Virus genome (UHGV): UHGV-0091736
Length of the DNA stretch: 64,000 nucleotides
Source of the DNA: a virus
Strand: one strand, 5' to 3'
Below, piece after piece: positions 29,681 through 48,881 of the stretch (positions within the stretch are counted from its first letter, which is position 1; each line of letters begins with the position of its first letter). A program made the translations under genes and the position numbers. The notes below the pieces were generated by a model. It was not told where the DNA came from. It saw only the letters and a program-made list of their open reading frames with translations, and did not search any database.

Positions 29681-31711
29681 TTAACCTCTATTCAATGAAC
29701 ATTTAGGAGAATTACAATAAACTTGATTCATAGAACCAAGCGTACAACTTTCAGCATCGCGCCACGGAATCTGCTTAAAACACTCTGAGCAGTATCCGAG
29801 GGTTGACCACATGGCTTTGGTGAAGTCAGTGCTTCGGTTTCCGTCGAAGCTGACAACAGTTTTGCGGAGAGCTGTTCGTGATTCAGGAAACACACCTGCT
29901 TTCTCAGCAGGTTCCTCCTTTTTTGGCTTAGTTGAGATTGCAAAAATACTGTTGCTACGTTTCTCAACATAAGCATCAACAACATCCTCCAGAGTGATGC
30001 CTGTTTGTTTCGCTGAGGAAGGTAATACAGTCATACGACCAATCATTTCTTCAGTTACACGTAAAGCAAACTCAGGACGACGGGTGTTTGTTGTATCTGT
30101 TGCTTTAATCCAGACATAACCATCTTTGATCGTAGCATTAGATACTTTCTTCTTTACTTCTACAGCGCAGACTTTACAGATATCTTCACCACGAAGACGA
30201 CTAAGTTCATCATCGAACTCATTCTCTGTTTTAACCTCACCACAGATTTCACAAACACCAATAGGAGTCTCCTCCTCTTCTTCCTCTTTAGGTTTAGTCA
30301 AACTTTCCAGACACTCTGGATGCCAGTAGCATTGATATGCGAAGACTGCTTTAGGTGCATCCTTCCAATCAATGTGCTTGTCACAACCACCACAATCACC
30401 ATGAGAGTGTGCTTCCCAGAATTTACGAGTGATAGTAACGCCATTCTTGTTGACGAAACTATCATTCATATCAAAAGGGATATCATCATCAAAATCAGCA
30501 GTAGTTGACTCAGGCTCCTTTTTCTCCAGAGATGGGTCAACAAAACGACCTGCTGTGATCACTAAACGAACCATAGCATTGACTTCGGAGATGCAGGATA
30601 CTGTCCCACGGTAAACAATTTTAGGGTCTTTCAGGGCATCCTGATAGGCCTTAATGTCTACGTTATGAACATCACCTTCGATATACTCTTGAGATTTCTC
30701 ATCGTAGATATAACCAATCATCTTACCACGAGAAGGGACAGCACCAGAAGTTGCATAAGGAACAAACTCATGCGGAGTGATTTCCACAGTCATGTCGCGG
30801 CGAATATCAATGTTTCGATCGCTTGCGATTTTGTTTTGACTTACCACTGCGTTTCTTCGACGAACATCTGCCGCCGTCACCCCCGGCTTCGTGTCGTAAG
30901 GATTGCTTGTACTGCTTTTTGAGGAGCTTTGATAGTTGCTTTGGCTGTAGTTGTTCGAGTAGTAACTGGCCCAACGATTGACTACCGTAAAAACCGGAAG
31001 CTCATGGGCGACCTCTTCAACCAGTGTCATGCTGTTATTTGACATGTCAAAGATGTACTCTGTACCAACCTTACATTCAAAATGCTCATCAATGCGGTTC
31101 TTGTGAGACTTCGAACGCTTCAGAATCCACATCAGCATATCTTCTTCAGAAGCACCAAACCAATCTTTATTACAACGTGCGAGATGGAAAGGACGTTCTT
31201 CGTTACGAATAATATGAAGCCGGTTATCAGAAGCATCATGCCAGATTAAAGTGAAAGCACCATCCAACTTTTGAATAGTCTCTGCTGCACCAATGGTGTT
31301 AATAGAGTGGCAGATGTTCTCGCTGTCTACCTCGAAGTTTTTACTGTCAGGTAACAGGTCTTGGTCAATCAAGGTTCCGTTATGAACCAGAGTGATGTTA
31401 CCGTGTTGGAAAGGATGGGCGTTCTTGGCGTTAACTGCACCTTTCGTTGCATGACGGCTGTGACCAACAATCCATGAAGGTGCTACAGTGTAAGATGTTT
31501 CACCAGTGGTATGCTTCTTATACTCATCTTGTAGGATGAATGCGAAAGAAGGAAGGGCTTCTTTATAAGTGAAGACCTCCTTAGTGCTCTTACGCTGACC
31601 AAAGATACCAGAAGAATGTTGTCCTCGGAATACCCCAGCATAAAAGAGTTGGTTGAATACGTCTAAATCGGTGCTTGACAGATTACCGCCAGCTAATACG
31701 ATGCCACAAAT
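29681..31711 (-). CDS. Class-II (Ntn) glutamine amidotransferase fused to a Cys-rich zinc-binding C-terminal domain; probable non-AUG (ATT) start
   Basis: Frame open 113 codons upstream of the track start, to a TAG; begins I-C-G-I-V-L-A-G-G with AGGTGG 9 nt upstream; RGQHSSGI, LVHNGTL; C-terminal HGDCGGC, CEICGEV. Confidence 0.65.
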   Translation of the reverse strand: MCGIVLAGGNLSSTDLDVFNQLFYAGVFRGQHSSGIFGQRKSTKEVFTYKEALPSFAFILQDEYKKHTTGETSYTVAPSWIVGHSRHATKGAVNAKNAHPFQHGNITLVHNGTLIDQDLLPDSKNFEVDSENICHSINTIGAAETIQKLDGAFTLIWHDASDNRLHIIRNEERPFHLARCNKDWFGASEEDMLMWILKRSKSHKNRIDEHFECKVGTEYIFDMSNNSMTLVEEVAHELPVFTVVNRWASYYSNNYSQSNYQSSSKSSTSNPYDTKPGVTAADVRRRNAVVSQNKIASDRNIDIRRDMTVEITPHEFVPYATSGAVPSRGKMIGYIYDEKSQEYIEGDVHNVDIKAYQDALKDPKIVYRGTVSCISEVNAMVRLVITAGRFVDPSLEKKEPESTTADFDDDIPFDMNDSFVNKNGVTITRKFWEAHSHGDCGGCDKHIDWKDAPKAVFAYQCYWHPECLESLTKPKEEEEEETPIGVCEICGEVKTENEFDDELSRLRGEDICKVCAVEVKKKVSNATIKDGYVWIKATDTTNTRRPEFALRVTEEMIGRMTVLPSSAKQTGITLEDVVDAYVEKRSNSIFAISTKPKKEEPAEKAGVFPESRTALRKTVVSFDGNRSTDFTKAMWSTLGYCSECFKQIPWRDAESCTLGSMNQVYCNSPKCSLNRG

Positions 31712-31790
31712 TTTCTAATCCACCTGAAGGGTAAACCCTTTCATCTAATTAACCTTTAAATTGTGCCCCTTTACCAGAGGCACCCATTGA

Positions 31791-32894
31791 TTACAGCGCT
31801 TGTTCTAACTGGTTTTCCAAATGGTCTGGAATGTACCCTGTGATATTGCTATCACTGTGACCTGACTCACGCAGCAAGTCAAAAATAGCACGGACACGTT
31901 GTTCTGGAGCGTGTCTTACTTGAGACAGGTCAGTTGTACTAAGCATAACCAGAATCTCTTGGTACAAGCTGTTAGCATTCCCTCGAACATATCCAAGGAA
32001 TCCATAGAAGTCTGGAATAAGACGTAAGTCAACAAGAGCTTCTCCGTTTGGGTTGGTTCGTCGTAAACGAATACGACCAGACTGCTCTACTTCATGAGAA
32101 CGGCAATACAAAACATCACGGGCCATACAATATCCTGAATGCAAATCCAACTCATCCAGATTGTAATCCAGAGGGAGATAAGGGAGCATTGGAGTGAATC
32201 GTACAGTATTTAAATGCTCAACAAACTGATCATTGCTCATATCTGCGTTATCTAAAGCCAGCTTCTTCAACATCAAGAAACGGTTAACCAAATTGAGAAG
32301 TTGACCACGTTTCCACTTAGGCTCACTGATACGGAACTCAATCGAACCATATTGGGCAAGTGGCAGAAGGTTCAGAGATGTGTATTTATCCCATGAACGA
32401 ACCAGACGGTTGAAGAATTCTTCACCATCGTAGTTAAATGCGTCAGAGGCATTCATCACCTGTGCTTGTACCACTGCAAACGCAGGGCAGAAGTTGCTAC
32501 GGTAACGATGGTAGCCCGAACACTTGAACAACATCTTTTCATAGAAGGTCCAAGCGAGAATGGTTTTCTTGAGGATATTACTATCAGCATCCCTCATATC
32601 CATATGAACGTGAGTAGAGCAACGCCAAGTCCCCTCGGCGTGCGATTCAGCTACTGCTTCACTCAGGTTGTTGATAGCGTCTAACAACTCCTGTCCATTG
32701 TAAGGCCGTGAACATACCATTTCACAACCATTACGCAGGGAACCATCCTCTGTACAATCCCACATATCTGCTTCGATATGATCGGAACCTTCGAGTTCAA
32801 GTTCAATACCGACACCGCACTGAAGTGCAATTGAACTATGCTCCTCAGTTAAACGACCTTCTCGATATCCAAAAGTTTGCGCTACAGTTGTCAT
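31791..32894 (-). CDS. Amidoligase-like (glutamine synthetase-fold carboxylate-amine ligase) protein
   Basis: VGIELELEG ... EDGSL ... STHVHMD motifs. Confidence 0.45.
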   Translation of the reverse strand: MTTVAQTFGYREGRLTEEHSSIALQCGVGIELELEGSDHIEADMWDCTEDGSLRNGCEMVCSRPYNGQELLDAINNLSEAVAESHAEGTWRCSTHVHMDMRDADSNILKKTILAWTFYEKMLFKCSGYHRYRSNFCPAFAVVQAQVMNASDAFNYDGEEFFNRLVRSWDKYTSLNLLPLAQYGSIEFRISEPKWKRGQLLNLVNRFLMLKKLALDNADMSNDQFVEHLNTVRFTPMLPYLPLDYNLDELDLHSGYCMARDVLYCRSHEVEQSGRIRLRRTNPNGEALVDLRLIPDFYGFLGYVRGNANSLYQEILVMLSTTDLSQVRHAPEQRVRAIFDLLRESGHSDSNITGYIPDHLENQLEQAL

Positions 32895-33508
32895 AACGAA
32901 TCCACCAACGTAATATTATAATTGCTAAGGTTTTCAGAAATGTGATGAAAGTGTTCCAGAAGTCGCATCGGTTGCTGACCGTAAGAGTCACGAGGTGCTT
33001 CCAGATCTACTTGCCCTACCAGTGCACCTTTATAATGCACCTTACCATCAGTAGGGTTGATGTAAATATAACGAGTAACCAATCCCTCGAATTCAGGATT
33101 GAACAGACTGTAAACCATCTCCCCGGAGATAGCACGACCAACACCCGGAGCATTTCGAATCTTGTTACCCATCAAACCCTTTGCTCTCTGACGAACAGGG
33201 TTAATATGAGTCCAACTTACAGTGTTACCGTTATGGAACAGATAACCAACATCAGGTGATTCAAGAATCAAGGTTGGGTCGAACACTGGAATATTCATCG
33301 TAGTGTTTCGAAGGTGCCCTTGCTCATTCTTGTACCACTGCTCTACAACAAAATACAGAGCCTGCTCTGCTTCGTGAGAGAAGTCATCGCTGCGGAAGTT
33401 ACCGCTCTGCTCAACACCAATCACAAAACATGGAAGGTTGATATTACCTGCTCGTTTAGCAATCCATGTACCATTATAGTAATGAGAAAAATCAGCTACT
33501 AAGCTCAC
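32891..33508 (-). CDS. Hypothetical enzyme-sized protein
   Basis: ORF only. Confidence 0.35.
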   Translation of the reverse strand: MSLVADFSHYYNGTWIAKRAGNINLPCFVIGVEQSGNFRSDDFSHEAEQALYFVVEQWYKNEQGHLRNTTMNIPVFDPTLILESPDVGYLFHNGNTVSWTHINPVRQRAKGLMGNKIRNAPGVGRAISGEMVYSLFNPEFEGLVTRYIYINPTDGKVHYKGALVGQVDLEAPRDSYGQQPMRLLEHFHHISENLSNYNITLVDSL

Positions 33509-33517
33509 GATAACCTC

Positions 33518-34324
33518 TTATGCTACCTGAAGGAGTTTGATCTGCTGGTCCGCTTCTTTAACGTTGTTGCCGTTAATGATTTCATGAAGCTTCTCAATCG
33601 GAAGGCGAGAGTGCAATGCCATCAGAGTGGACATATCACACTGCTGAACAACCTTGTCAACCTGATCGTAAACAAACTTACGGTTTTCACGATCGCTAAT
33701 CCAGAAGTTAGACAGCGAACGATATTCGATACCATAGTCTTTATAACGGATTGCAGATGCTTTACCGTAGAGTTCTTTACGGCGAGTATCTTTGTCCATA
33801 ATTACTGCTGGGAGTGATAGGAAGTAGTCACACAGCACACCAAGCATCATCTGAGTTTGCAGAGTGATATCCAAAGCCCCAACGACACCAAGATGTACGT
33901 GACCACCGGCAGTACGAAGTCCCTTATTCTGAGAAGTTGGGGATGGGTTTTTCTGACCAGTGAAAGCGTTGAAGTCAGGAGTGCATCCAAAGATGAACGC
34001 TGATTCATTAAAGGTCTTCATCTCTTCTTCGGTGAAGATGTGAGAGCTGACACCCGGAGCTGTTTCCATATCCAGTTTGTTCAGGACTTTATTGGTGAGA
34101 TCAATACCACGTTGCATGTTATCATTAAACGCTTCAAAACCGCTCTGTGGGTCAATATCAAACTCAGCCAATACGTTGTCCTCTTGAAGACGAACATCCT
34201 TAGCCAGAGCGATCTTATCGTCCTTAGAGCAGCCTAGAAGACCGGCTACAGAGGTGATGATGCCGTTGCTAGTACGAACGAAGAGCTCAGGGTCGCTGCC
34301 TATTAAGAATTTGCGCTTAGTCAT
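33518..34324 (-). CDS. Second amidoligase-like protein (tentative)
   Basis: GSDPELF and GGHVHLG motifs. Confidence 0.35.
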   Translation of the reverse strand: MTKRKFLIGSDPELFVRTSNGIITSVAGLLGCSKDDKIALAKDVRLQEDNVLAEFDIDPQSGFEAFNDNMQRGIDLTNKVLNKLDMETAPGVSSHIFTEEEMKTFNESAFIFGCTPDFNAFTGQKNPSPTSQNKGLRTAGGHVHLGVVGALDITLQTQMMLGVLCDYFLSLPAVIMDKDTRRKELYGKASAIRYKDYGIEYRSLSNFWISDRENRKFVYDQVDKVVQQCDMSTLMALHSRLPIEKLHEIINGNNVKEADQQIKLLQVA

Positions 34325-48617: not shown

Positions 48618-48881
48618 TCATTCTTCATCATTGCCTTTACCTTCAAAGAGTGATACTCTAAGCAATTTAATTTCTTCCAGTGACAGAAGAATCCCACGTT
48701 GCGCCAGATAATGACCAGCTTTAACATCATCCATAATTAGAGCGACGGCAGGAAATTCTACCGCATTAATATTATCGCCACCAACAAACAAGATCAGACA
48801 CTTGTCAGAATTGTCAGTATATGAGAAATCAATATCCCCATAGTTATGAGTAGGGATAGTGTAACTATGTTCTTTAGCCAT
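48618..48881 (-). CDS. Hypothetical protein
   Basis: ORF only. Confidence 0.35.
   Translation of the reverse strand: MAKEHSYTIPTHNYGDIDFSYTDNSDKCLILFVGGDNINAVEFPAVALIMDDVKAGHYLAQRGILLSLEEIKLLRVSLFEGKGNDEE

What the first reader, a model, noticed from the sequence alone, without database searches (positions are those of the whole stretch)
29681..31711. Glutamine amidotransferase appears to start at a non-AUG (ATT) codon; catalytic N-terminus missed by the ORF track
The track ORF begins mid-domain. The same frame is open 113 codons further upstream to a TAG, and its first codons read I-C-G-I-V-L-A-G-G, the hallmark N-terminus of Ntn class-II amidotransferases where Cys is the nucleophile after initiator removal. 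There is no in-frame ATG, GTG or TTG between the TAG and the Cys, but a strong AGGTGG lies 9 nt upstream of the ATT.
Basis: seen in the sequence. Interest (0 to 1): 0.6.

Follow-up and report, generated by a model that had tools for sequence, protein, structure and literature searches.

The report
Phage amidotransferase gene starting at AUU
This phage gene for a glutamine-splitting enzyme almost certainly begins at the rare start codon AUU, and about a quarter of related phage genes also start at AUU or AUC, usually just downstream of a small RNA hairpin, which suggests a deliberate translation-control device rather than an error.

Summary
On the minus strand, TAG (31717-15) is followed by AAA, ATT (31711-09), then TGT-GGC-ATC-GTA (C-G-I-V). 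AGGTGG lies 8 nt upstream of the ATT. The first in-frame ATG/GTG/TTG is codon 114.

The window is a phiEco32-like Kuravirus, and the gene is the phi32_83 homologue. The ATT start is well supported:
- Codons 2-113 are under purifying selection (dN/dS 0.09).
- They carry the Cys1, Arg, Asn-Gly and Asp catalytic residues of class-II (Ntn) amidotransferases, in register with GlmS and PurF.
- Distant homologues have ATG exactly where this gene has ATT.
- The 56-nt leader is identical in 97 phage records, so this is not a sequencing error.
- The RefSeq phiEco32 record already annotates ATT; many other records truncate the gene.

Two results appear to be new:
- In a sample of 80 viral contigs chosen independently of the start codon, the codon before Cys1 is ATG 61, ATT 15, ATC 3, TTG 1, GTG 0. 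The ATT/ATC cases are scattered across the tree.
- ATT/ATC starts carry a 5-7 bp hairpin 13-15 nt upstream, abutting the Shine-Dalgarno (18/27 versus 2/62 for ATG starts). Stem sequences differ between lineages.

The mechanism (IF3-sensitive or reinitiation-dependent) is inferred, not shown.

The parts
29681..31711 (-). Full coding sequence of the phage class-II (Ntn) glutamine amidotransferase (phi32_83 homologue): ATT start, 675 residues after Met removal, TAA stop at 29683-29681.
   Evidence: phiEco32 CDS with the same limits; Pfam GATase_6, E = 1.6e-14; dN/dS.
31709..31711 (-). ATT (AUU), the proposed initiation codon. It occupies the position that is ATG in distant homologues.
31706..31708 (-). 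TGT, the codon of the catalytic N-terminal Cys (Cys1 after removal of the initiator Met).
   Evidence: C1 and G2 invariant in 21 homologues; aligned to Cys1 of GlmS and PurF.
31720..31725 (-). Shine-Dalgarno sequence AGGTGG, 8-nt A-rich spacer to the ATT.
   Evidence: (duplex with the 16S 3' end, -7.2 kcal/mol).
31727..31740 (-). Hairpin AAGGG-TTTA-CCCTT, whose 3' end lies 15 nt before the ATT and abuts the SD. It is one instance of the hairpin-SD-AUY module.
   Evidence: In Aeromonas phage BUCT695 the only change within it is in the loop.
31715..31744 (-). In-frame mini-ORF ATG AAA GGG TTT ACC CTT CAG GTG GAT TAG (MKGFTLQVD*), ending 3 nt before the ATT. Its role is uncertain.
   Evidence: The related leader in L146 has GAG in place of TAG.
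31704..31759 (-). 56-nt leader block identical in 97 phage records from three genera and 91% identical in Aeromonas phage BUCT695.
   Evidence: Synonymous divergence of the adjacent coding sequence is pS 0.65-0.81.
31763..31783 (-). 8-bp G+C-rich hairpin (GTGCCTCT...AGGGGCAC) after the amidoligase stop codon (31793-31791). It looks like a terminator but lacks a full T-run.
   Evidence: Compensatory differences in SU7 and ECBP2. Not called by the terminator scan.
31034..31708 (-). Ntn glutaminase domain (residues 1-225) with the motifs CGIV(1), RGQHS(28), GHSRHAT(82), NAHPF(96), HNGT(109) and VDSE(127).
31370..31372 (-). TTG, the first in-frame canonical start (codon 114) and the start used by the ORF track. 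It falls just after the HNG oxyanion motif.
29780..30394 (-). C-terminal region with four CxxC motifs (residues 439, 486, 511, 640), zinc-ribbon-like. No Pfam match and no SIS domain.

Best explanation
The gene is translated from the AUU at 31711-31709. Initiator fMet-tRNA pairs with AUU, and the Met is then removed to leave Cys1, the nucleophile of a class-II (Ntn) glutaminase domain. The AUU belongs to a self-contained translation-initiation module: a small hairpin (31740-31727), then a Shine-Dalgarno (31725-31720), an A-rich 8-nt spacer, AUU, and UGU. The same architecture, with AUU or AUC, recurs in many unrelated lineages of this phage enzyme family and has been gained, lost or swapped repeatedly. 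Shown here: the N-terminal 113 codons are coding; the catalytic residues lie there; ATT sits where homologues have ATG; the sequence is invariant across genomes; ATT/ATC starts are greatly over-represented in the family; and they are associated with a hairpin 13-15 nt upstream. Inferred: AUU and AUC are the codon class most strongly rejected by initiation factor 3, so pairing them with a strong, structurally fixed ribosome-binding site makes start-codon acceptance the limiting step. That would keep the glutaminase low, or tie its synthesis to the state of the translation apparatus. The hairpin is inferred to fix the SD register or stabilise 30S binding.
For: Sequence of the start region. Same arrangement in phiEco32, with an annotated ATT start. 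Purifying selection on codons 2-113 (dN/dS 0.09 vs KBNP1711; 0.02 vs phiEco32). Pfam GATase_6/7. Family profile aligned from Cys1 to Cys1 of GlmS (E = 6.6e-19) and PurF. Invariant C1, G2, R28, G29, H83, R85, N110, G111, D128. Homologues with ATG-TGT at the same position (7-11, J3S, A24, 4_4572, RIO-1, PaP3, IMG/VR contigs). Leader identical in 97 records. Sample chosen independently of the start codon (mid-domain search pattern): ATG 61, ATT 15, ATC 3, TTG 1, GTG 0 of 80 (70 distinct: 51/15/3/1). Most of these have an in-frame stop 2-20 codons upstream and no canonical start in between. ATT/ATC scattered on the tree, with close ATG relatives (L211 vs L205, 96% identity; L194 vs L200, 87%). Klebsiella phage VR7901 has ATT while its congener Pecta has ATG. 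Hairpin 12-17 nt upstream in 18/27 unique ATT/ATC initiation regions vs 2/62 ATG ones (p = 2e-10); no difference for hairpins 23-45 nt upstream. The association survives restriction to intergenic gaps of at least 17 nt (16/22 vs 1/11, p = 8e-4). Stem sequences differ while SD-to-start sequence is shared (L146, L150, L163, L179). SD somewhat stronger in the ATT/ATC class (p = 0.017). The module is unique to this gene within the window.
Against: There is no direct protein or ribosome-profiling evidence. The SU10 proteomics table only repeats the mass of the truncated model (63.8 kDa equals the TTG-start product; PMC4281155). AUU is a poor start codon in E. coli (established knowledge), so output may be low. 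The in-frame ATG mini-ORF ending 3 nt upstream leaves other routes open. The statistics are not corrected for phylogeny, and part of the ATT sample (metagenome scan) was selected for ATT. The SD here (AGGTGG; AGGCGG in BUCT695) is only moderate. Nine of the 27 unique ATT/ATC initiation regions lack the hairpin. The IF3 rationale and the hairpin's role are untested inference.
Confidence: 0.78

Rival explanations
1. AUU is the start codon, but ribosomes reach it mainly by termination-reinitiation. They load at the canonical AUG of the mini-ORF (31744, with its AAAGG 8 nt upstream), translate nine codons through the hairpin, terminate at UAG (31717-15), and restart 3 nt downstream at AUU with the help of the internal SD. 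De novo initiation at AUU would be negligible.
For: The mini-ORF is in frame, ends 3 nt before the ATT and contains the SD. The whole 56-nt block, including the ATG and its AAAGG, is invariant in 97 genomes and kept in BUCT695. The upstream amidoligase gene ends 79 nt before the ATT, too far for ordinary coupling. By contrast, ATG-class homologues are mostly overlapped with the upstream ORF (median gap 1 nt).
Against: Other ATT/ATC lineages with the same hairpin-SD-AUY module have no such mini-ORF. The distance from the nearest upstream stop to the hairpin ranges from -24 to +73 nt, so reinitiation is not the common denominator. The hairpin sits directly after the mini-ORF AUG and would hinder initiation there. 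All three codon positions of the mini-ORF are conserved, so the conservation is not explained by the peptide.
Confidence: 0.15
2. Translation starts at ATG 31744 and reads through the UAG, giving a 12-residue propeptide (MKGFTLQVD-X-KI). The propeptide is then removed autocatalytically to expose Cys1, as in Bacillus subtilis PurF.
For: The ATG is in frame, 12 codons before Cys1, similar in length to the 11-residue PurF propeptide (own knowledge). A related leader in contig L146 has GAG instead of TAG, giving an uninterrupted ORF from an ATG at the same distance.
Against: The window encodes only tRNA-Arg(TCT) and no suppressor tRNA. UAG is an efficient stop in E. coli (established knowledge). 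The stop is conserved in all 97 genomes and in BUCT695. Most other ATT/ATC lineages have in-frame TAA, TAG or TGA with no upstream ATG, so they must start at the ATT/ATC itself.
Confidence: 0.04
3. The gene really starts at a downstream canonical codon (TTG 31372, as in the ORF track and in phage Paul's annotation), and the upstream 113 codons are an untranslated remnant.
For: Gene finders and several GenBank records choose downstream starts: Paul +342 nt, KBNP1711 +135, SU7 and ECBP2 +30, BUCT695 +33.
Against: dN/dS is 0.09 over codons 2-113 with saturated synonymous sites. Cys1, R28, R85 and N110-G111 would all be lost. The downstream starts chosen differ between genomes and are not conserved.
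Confidence: 0.02
4. Sequencing or assembly error, or a laboratory amber/start mutation in this isolate.
For: None beyond the rarity of ATT starts.
Against: The sequence is identical in 97 independent phage records and several metagenome assemblies.
Confidence: 0.01

Closest known systems
E. coli infC (IF3) and pcnB: chromosomal genes initiated at AUU
   Same: AUU serves as the initiation codon, preceded by a Shine-Dalgarno, with no canonical alternative. AUU belongs to the codon class discriminated against by IF3 (own knowledge of Sussman et al. 1996 and the infC autoregulation literature).
   Different: Those are single host genes. Here AUU/AUC recurs polyphyletically in about a quarter of one phage enzyme family and is coupled to a hairpin 13-15 nt upstream. 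No link to IF3 has been shown here.
IS911 orfB: AUU initiation in a mobile element
   Same: AUU initiation next to an SD in a compact, overlapping translational control region (own knowledge).
   Different: IS911 combines it with -1 frameshifting on A-AAA-AAG. No frameshift is needed or indicated here, because the mini-ORF is in the same frame and closed by UAG.
Class-II (Ntn, PurF-type) glutamine amidotransferases: GlmS, PurF, AsnB
   Same: The glutaminase domain is homologous from Cys1 across about 217 positions, with the catalytic Arg, Asn-Gly and Asp conserved. Met removal is needed to free Cys1.
   Different: There is no SIS, PRTase or asparagine-synthetase domain. The C-terminal 400 residues match no Pfam family and carry CxxC motifs. 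The gene sits in a phage cluster with Amidoligase_2, COOH-NH2 ligase and a gamma-glutamyl cyclotransferase. The substrate is unknown.
Bacillus subtilis PurF propeptide
   Same: A short N-terminal extension (11 residues) precedes the catalytic Cys and is removed autocatalytically. The mini-ORF plus K-I would give 12 residues.
   Different: Here the extension is interrupted by a conserved UAG. The propeptide route is therefore unlikely.
phi32_83 of phage phiEco32 (RefSeq NC_010324.1)
   Same: It is the orthologue: 96% DNA identity, an identical leader, and a CDS annotated from the same ATT.
   Different: None of substance. The record's product name (GlmS-type aminotransferase) is not supported by the domain content.

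Membership tests
Class-II (Ntn) glutamine amidotransferase domain | Catalytic Cys is the first residue of the mature protein | tested here: met
   TGT immediately follows the proposed start. C1 and G2 are invariant in 21 homologues. Profile position 1 aligns with Cys1 of GlmS 1xff and PurF 1ecb/1ao0. The mature N-terminus itself was not observed.
Class-II (Ntn) glutamine amidotransferase domain | Conserved glutamine-binding and oxyanion residues (GlmS Arg26, Arg73, Asn98-Gly99, Asp123) | tested here: met
   R28, R85, N110-G111 and D128 are invariant and in register with GlmS and PurF.
Class-II (Ntn) glutamine amidotransferase domain | Four-layer alpha-beta-beta-alpha Ntn fold | not tested
   No structure was predicted. 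Homology over 217 profile positions to solved glutaminase domains and Pfam GATase_6/7 above cut-off make the fold very likely.
GlmS (L-glutamine:D-fructose-6-phosphate aminotransferase), the name used in many records | C-terminal tandem SIS isomerase domains | tested here: not met
   Pfam finds only GATase families within residues 75-192 and nothing in residues 260-675. PDB hits cover only the glutaminase domain.
AUU/AUC-initiated bacterial genes (infC type) | Non-AUG class-IIA codon at the start with an SD at proper spacing and no in-frame canonical alternative that preserves the protein | tested here: met
   The same holds in 15 of the 18 ATT/ATC loci in the unbiased sample (L146, L193 and L210 have an upstream in-frame ATG or TTG) and, outside that sample, in Klebsiella phage VR7901.
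AUU/AUC-initiated bacterial genes (infC type) | Expression responds to IF3 level; N-terminus verified experimentally | not testable with these tools
   Needs reporter assays in infC mutants or overexpressers, and N-terminal proteomics.
Structured cis-regulatory RNA (hairpin-SD-AUY module) | Structure conserved with differing sequence at a fixed position relative to the start | tested here: met
   18 of 27 unique ATT/ATC initiation regions vs 2 of 62 ATG ones have a hairpin of at least 5 bp ending 12-17 nt before the start. Stems all differ; distances are 13-15 nt. No Rfam family matches. A formal covariance model was not built, because MAFFT shifted the register.

The most novel reading that the evidence does not exclude
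The hairpin-SD-A-rich spacer-AUU/AUC unit is a conserved translational control element specific to phage Ntn-amidotransferase genes. It is exchanged horizontally between phages: the same SD-to-start sequence occurs on distant branches, and a near-identical 56-nt leader occurs in E. coli Kuraviruses and an Aeromonas Grimontviridae phage. It would make synthesis of a potentially harmful glutaminase depend on the start-codon proofreading state of the host ribosome (IF3), or on reinitiation. That would make it the first family-wide, structure-linked use of AUU/AUC initiation.
Probability: 0.45. Interest if true: 0.75.

Novelty: new variant of a known kind. Interest (0 to 1): 0.6.

Why it matters
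For this window alone the result is a corrected gene model. The enzyme is 675 residues with an intact active site, not the 563-residue truncated product that the ORF track and many GenBank records give.

More broadly, well-documented AUU-initiated genes are very few (infC and pcnB in E. coli). Gene finders do not consider ATT or ATC as starts. As a result, about a quarter of this widespread phage enzyme family is probably mis-annotated without its catalytic cysteine.

A start codon of the IF3-rejected class recurs here and is tied to a positioned hairpin. That offers a natural, comparative system for asking how bacteria and phages use start-codon proofreading as a regulatory input. The question can be tested directly with reporters in E. 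coli, using cultured phages such as phiEco32, the BASEL Bas86-94 set and Klebsiella phage VR7901.

Tried and rejected
- Rfam scans of the leader and of ten other ATT/ATC loci found nothing meaningful.
- A general phage promoter or repeat was tested for: the leader halves occur only once in the window. The motif TTTAAAKGTWAA is only weakly enriched.
- The MFE fold suggested an SD-sequestering hairpin (GGUUUACC/GGUGGAUU). I rejected it because both BUCT695 substitutions break it, whereas AAGGG/CCCUU is preserved.
- Translational bypassing, or -1/+1 frameshifting on AAAAUUU, was considered by inspection and rejected. The frames do not connect, and no ORF enters from upstream.
- No suppressor tRNA: the window holds only tRNA-Arg(TCT).
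- A scan of IMG/VR for the exact ATT context found only the four known Kuravirus-like genomes plus chance matches.
- An attempt to make a fixed-register alignment for a covariance model failed, because MAFFT aligned on GGAT and shifted the stems. I relied on a position-specific hairpin count with the ATG class as control instead.
- The phiEco32 papers (Savalia 2008, Pavlova 2012) are not held. The SU10 supplements hold no peptide data.
- Literature searches found no description of ATT starts in phage amidotransferases.
- Coupling to the upstream gene's stop codon as the common feature was rejected, because stop-to-hairpin distances vary from -24 to +73 nt.
Full report
**1. What is in the sequence**

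On the minus strand the region reads ATG(31744) AAA GGG TTT ACC CTT CAG GTG GAT TAG(31717-15) AAA ATT(31711-09) TGT GGC ATC GTA TTA GCT GGC GGT.
K-I-C-G-I-V-L-A-G-G follows a TAG, and no ATG, GTG or TTG lies between that TAG and the Cys codon.
- AGGTGG (31725-20) sits 8 nt before the ATT.
- The first canonical in-frame start is TTG 31372, which is codon 114.
It opens at a canonical ATG (31744) that has its own AAAGG 8 nt upstream.

**2. Identity of the locus**

The window is a phiEco32-like Kuravirus: 96-97% DNA identity to about 70 E. coli/Shigella phages, and 98 records in all.
- The gene is the orthologue of phi32_83.
- It lies in the known phiEco32 cluster: COOH-NH2 ligase, Amidoligase_2, this amidotransferase, an ATP-grasp protein and a gamma-glutamyl cyclotransferase.
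- The RefSeq phiEco32 record annotates the CDS from the very same ATT, as do the BASEL phages Bas89 and Bas93.
- Other records choose different downstream starts: Paul +342 nt, KBNP1711 +135, SU7 and ECBP2 +30, BUCT695 +33.
- So the ATT start is already present in public annotation, but inconsistently. I found no paper that discusses it.

**3. Is the N-terminal extension translated and needed?**

Codons 2-113 show dN/dS of 0.09 against KBNP1711, with synonymous differences near saturation (pS 0.65). This is indistinguishable from the rest of the domain.

Pfam finds GATase_6 and GATase_7. A profile of 21 homologues that begins at the Cys aligns over 217 positions with the E. coli GlmS glutaminase domain, Cys1 on Cys1 (E = 6.6e-19), and also with PurF.

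Invariant residues are C1, G2, R28, G29, H83, R85, N110, G111 and D128. The motifs HNGT(109) and VDSE(127) bracket the TTG. A product started at the TTG would therefore lack the nucleophile, both arginines and the oxyanion Asn-Gly.

The SU10 proteomics paper detected the protein, but its '63.8 kDa' is simply the mass of the truncated model (PMC4281155). It says nothing about the N-terminus.

**4. Not an error**

The 56 nt at 31704-31759 are 100% identical in all 97 E. coli/Shigella phage records that carry them. These span Kuravirus, Suseptimavirus and Nieuwekanaalvirus. The block is 91% identical in Aeromonas phage BUCT695 (Grimontviridae), whose protein is only about 52% identical.

Flanking sequence diverges immediately on both sides. 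Upstream, the hairpin after the amidoligase stop shows compensatory changes. Downstream, variation begins at third codon positions from codon 3. With neutral sites near saturation, this is strong purifying selection on every nucleotide of the leader.

**5. Homologues**

More distant homologues all read ATG-TGT-GG, with the ATG exactly where the window has ATT. They are Salmonella 7-11, Proteus J3S, Cronobacter A24, Aeromonas 4_4572, Pseudoalteromonas RIO-1, Pseudomonas PaP3 and several IMG/VR contigs.

Relative to its nearest ATG relatives (L136-138; ...TAAATTAGAGGATGTATTAA-ATG), the Kuravirus leader looks like a replacement or insertion of about 30 nt. This segment is bounded by a direct repeat, ATTAGA (31749-44 and 31719-14).

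**6. A family-wide pattern**

A metagenome scan that required ATT before TGY-GGN-ATH-GT returned Kuravirus-like contigs. It also returned about a dozen divergent homologues (28-42% identity). These had AGGAGGAT-N6-ATT-TGT and no canonical start between the upstream in-frame stop and the Cys.

That scan presupposed ATT, so I drew a sample that did not. The family alignment A2 was searched against IMG/VR, and the tool chose a mid-domain peptide pattern, which is independent of the start codon.
- Among the 80 loci returned, the codon before Cys1 is ATG 61, ATT 15, ATC 3, TTG 1, GTG 0, ATA 0.
- Among the 70 distinct proteins the counts are 51, 15, 3 and 1.
- Fifteen of the 18 ATT/ATC loci have no in-frame canonical start before the next upstream stop, which is TAA, TAG or TGA.
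- On a neighbour-joining tree the ATT/ATC state is scattered, with 13 changes by Fitch parsimony. That number is rough, because the tree is deep.
- Several ATT genes have close ATG relatives: L211/L205 at 96% identity, L194/L200 at 87%, L159/L200 at 77%.
- Among 16 cultured phages outside the Kuravirus group, 12 use ATG, one GTG, one TTG and two ATT. The two are BUCT695 and Klebsiella phage KpnP_VR7901, whose congener Erwinia phage Pecta has ATG.

For comparison, E. coli K-12 has two classical AUU-initiated genes among about 4,300 (own knowledge). GTG plus TTG, normally 5-15% of starts, are nearly absent here.

**7. A hairpin goes with the AUU/AUC**

Inspection showed a small stem-loop immediately 5' of the SD in most ATT/ATC initiation regions.
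- Quantified on unique initiation regions, a hairpin of at least 5 bp (dG <= -3 kcal/mol) ending 12-17 nt before the start occurs in 18 of 27 ATT/ATC cases. It occurs in 2 of 62 ATG cases (Fisher p = 2e-10).
- Hairpins 23-45 nt upstream do not differ between the classes.
- The distances cluster at 13-15 nt.
- The MFE of positions -45 to -7 is -6.2 versus -3.0 kcal/mol (p = 6e-6).
- Stem sequences all differ (AAGGG/CCCTT, AGACTAA/TTAGTCT, ACGACA/TGTCGT, CAAGCT/AGCTTG, AAAGCC/GGCTTT, CCGGC/GCCGG and others).
- By contrast, the SD-to-start segment falls into a few shared types: GGAGGATTAGAAA-ATT, as in the window; TAGGAGATGAGAAA-ATY; AAAGGTAGGAACCYAAA-ATT; and GGAGGATA-N5-ATT. These types occur on different branches of the protein tree. 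This suggests conservation with compensatory stem changes and/or exchange of the initiation region by recombination.

One confounder was identified. ATG-class genes mostly overlap the upstream ORF (median gap 1 nt), whereas ATT/ATC genes have a spacer (median 28 nt). Restricting to gaps of at least 17 nt, the association persists: 16/22 versus 1/11, p = 8e-4.

Further observations:
- The distance from the upstream gene's stop to the hairpin is not constant (-24 to +73 nt). The fixed geometry is hairpin-to-start, not stop-to-hairpin.
- SDs are slightly stronger in the ATT/ATC class.
- Within the window, the module is unique to this gene.
- A stringent scan of 0.9 Mb of fetched loci found it almost only at amidotransferase genes.
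- None of these statistics is corrected for phylogeny.

**8. Mechanism**

Shown:
- AUU (or AUC in some relatives) is the only codon from which an intact enzyme can be made.
- It recurs in the family.
- It is linked to a positioned hairpin and a good SD.

Inferred:
- fMet-tRNA initiates at AUU, and deformylase plus Met-aminopeptidase then expose Cys1. Met-Cys is a good MetAP substrate (established knowledge).
- AUU and AUC belong to the codon class most strongly rejected by IF3 (established knowledge). Combining them with efficient, structurally fixed ribosome recruitment would make start-codon acceptance the rate-limiting, tunable step.
- That would keep a potentially wasteful glutaminase low, or tie it to the state of the translation apparatus during infection.
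- The hairpin may lock the SD/anti-SD register or stack on that helix. This is speculation.

For the Kuravirus leader specifically, the in-frame mini-ORF ending 3 nt before the AUU could feed ribosomes by termination-reinitiation (rival 1). It could also, much less probably, allow UAG readthrough to give a propeptide (rival 2). No suppressor tRNA is present. Most other ATT/ATC lineages lack any such ORF, so I treat the mini-ORF as lineage-specific or incidental.

The invariance of the 19 nt upstream of the hairpin (31759-41) is not explained.
- In relatives this position carries TTTAAATGTAA. That resembles the gp36-sigma promoter motif tAATGTATAtA, which lies 6-8 nt upstream of transcription starts (PMC4281155, citing Pavlova 2012).
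- The window has TTTAAAGGTTAA.
- If a transcript started there, the hairpin would sit at its 5' end.

**9. Comparison with the known, and verdict**

The protein is a member of the class-II Ntn amidotransferase superfamily. It is not a GlmS, because it has no SIS domain. The start codon belongs to the known kind of AUU-initiated genes (infC, pcnB, IS911 orfB).

The ATT start of this particular gene is already in RefSeq. Two things appear to be new. One is the high, polyphyletic frequency of ATT/ATC starts in one phage enzyme family. The other is their coupling to a hairpin 13-15 nt upstream.

I rate the original finding as correct and moderately interesting, and the family-level pattern as worth experimental follow-up.

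Noticed in passing
window 31704-31759 (-): A 56-nt leader is 100% identical in 97 phage records across three genera and 91% identical in an Aeromonas phage of another family, while adjacent synonymous sites are saturated. The 19 nt upstream of the hairpin (TTAAAGGTTAATTAGATGA) have no explanation.
   Followed up: partly
window 31744-31749 and 31714-31719 (-): A direct repeat ATTAGA flanks the about 30-nt segment (hairpin + SD) that is absent from the nearest ATG-start relatives (L136-138). It looks like a microhomology-mediated swap of the initiation region.
   Followed up: partly
window 31749-31760 (-); L013-L015, L073, L074, L007: Relatives carry TTTAAATGTAA about 20-30 nt upstream of the amidotransferase start. 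This resembles the phiEco32 gp36-sigma promoter motif tAATGTATAtA. The window has the diverged TTTAAAGGTTAA. Five similar sites lie on the minus strand at 41073-48647.
   Followed up: partly
L146 (IMGVR_UViG_3300022540_000049), about 36 nt upstream of the Cys codon: The leader is homologous to the window's (same TTTA loop, compensated stem, GAT-GAG-AAA-ATC) but has GAG where the window has TAG. An ATG 12 codons upstream therefore opens an uninterrupted ORF into the enzyme, giving a possible natural propeptide variant.
   Followed up: partly
L132-L211: ATG-start homologues are mostly overlapped with the upstream ORF (median gap 1 nt; ATGA/TAATG type), whereas ATT/ATC-start homologues have a median 28-nt spacer. 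These are two alternative architectures for expressing the same enzyme.
   Followed up: partly
public records: Paul MN045231, KBNP1711 NC_023593, SU7 MZ342906, ECBP2 NC_018859, BUCT695 NC_070977, KpnP_VR7901 OM103162: The amidotransferase CDS is annotated 10 to 114 codons too short, without the catalytic Cys, because gene finders do not allow ATT. The product name 'L-glutamine-D-fructose-6-phosphate aminotransferase' is unsupported, as there is no SIS domain.
   Followed up: yes
window 29780-30394 (-): The C-terminal 400 residues have four CxxC motifs (zinc-ribbon-like) and no Pfam match. This part is poorly conserved (22% identity to BUCT695). Its function and substrate are unknown.
   Followed up: no
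window 27115-34324 (-): The gene cluster is GGACT cyclotransferase, 398-aa protein (ATP-grasp in phiEco32 annotation; no Pfam hit here), DUF7195, amidotransferase, Amidoligase_2, a 205-aa unknown protein and COOH-NH2 ligase. This is the phiEco32-type peptide/amide-ligase system, whose product is unknown.
   Followed up: partly
window 40340-40416 (-): A single tRNA-Arg (anticodon TCT) is present. No suppressor tRNA occurs in the window.
   Followed up: yes
window 31763-31783 (-): There is an 8-bp G+C-rich hairpin after the amidoligase stop, without a full T-run. It shows compensatory changes in Suseptimavirus relatives. It may be a weak terminator or an RNA stability element.
   Followed up: no
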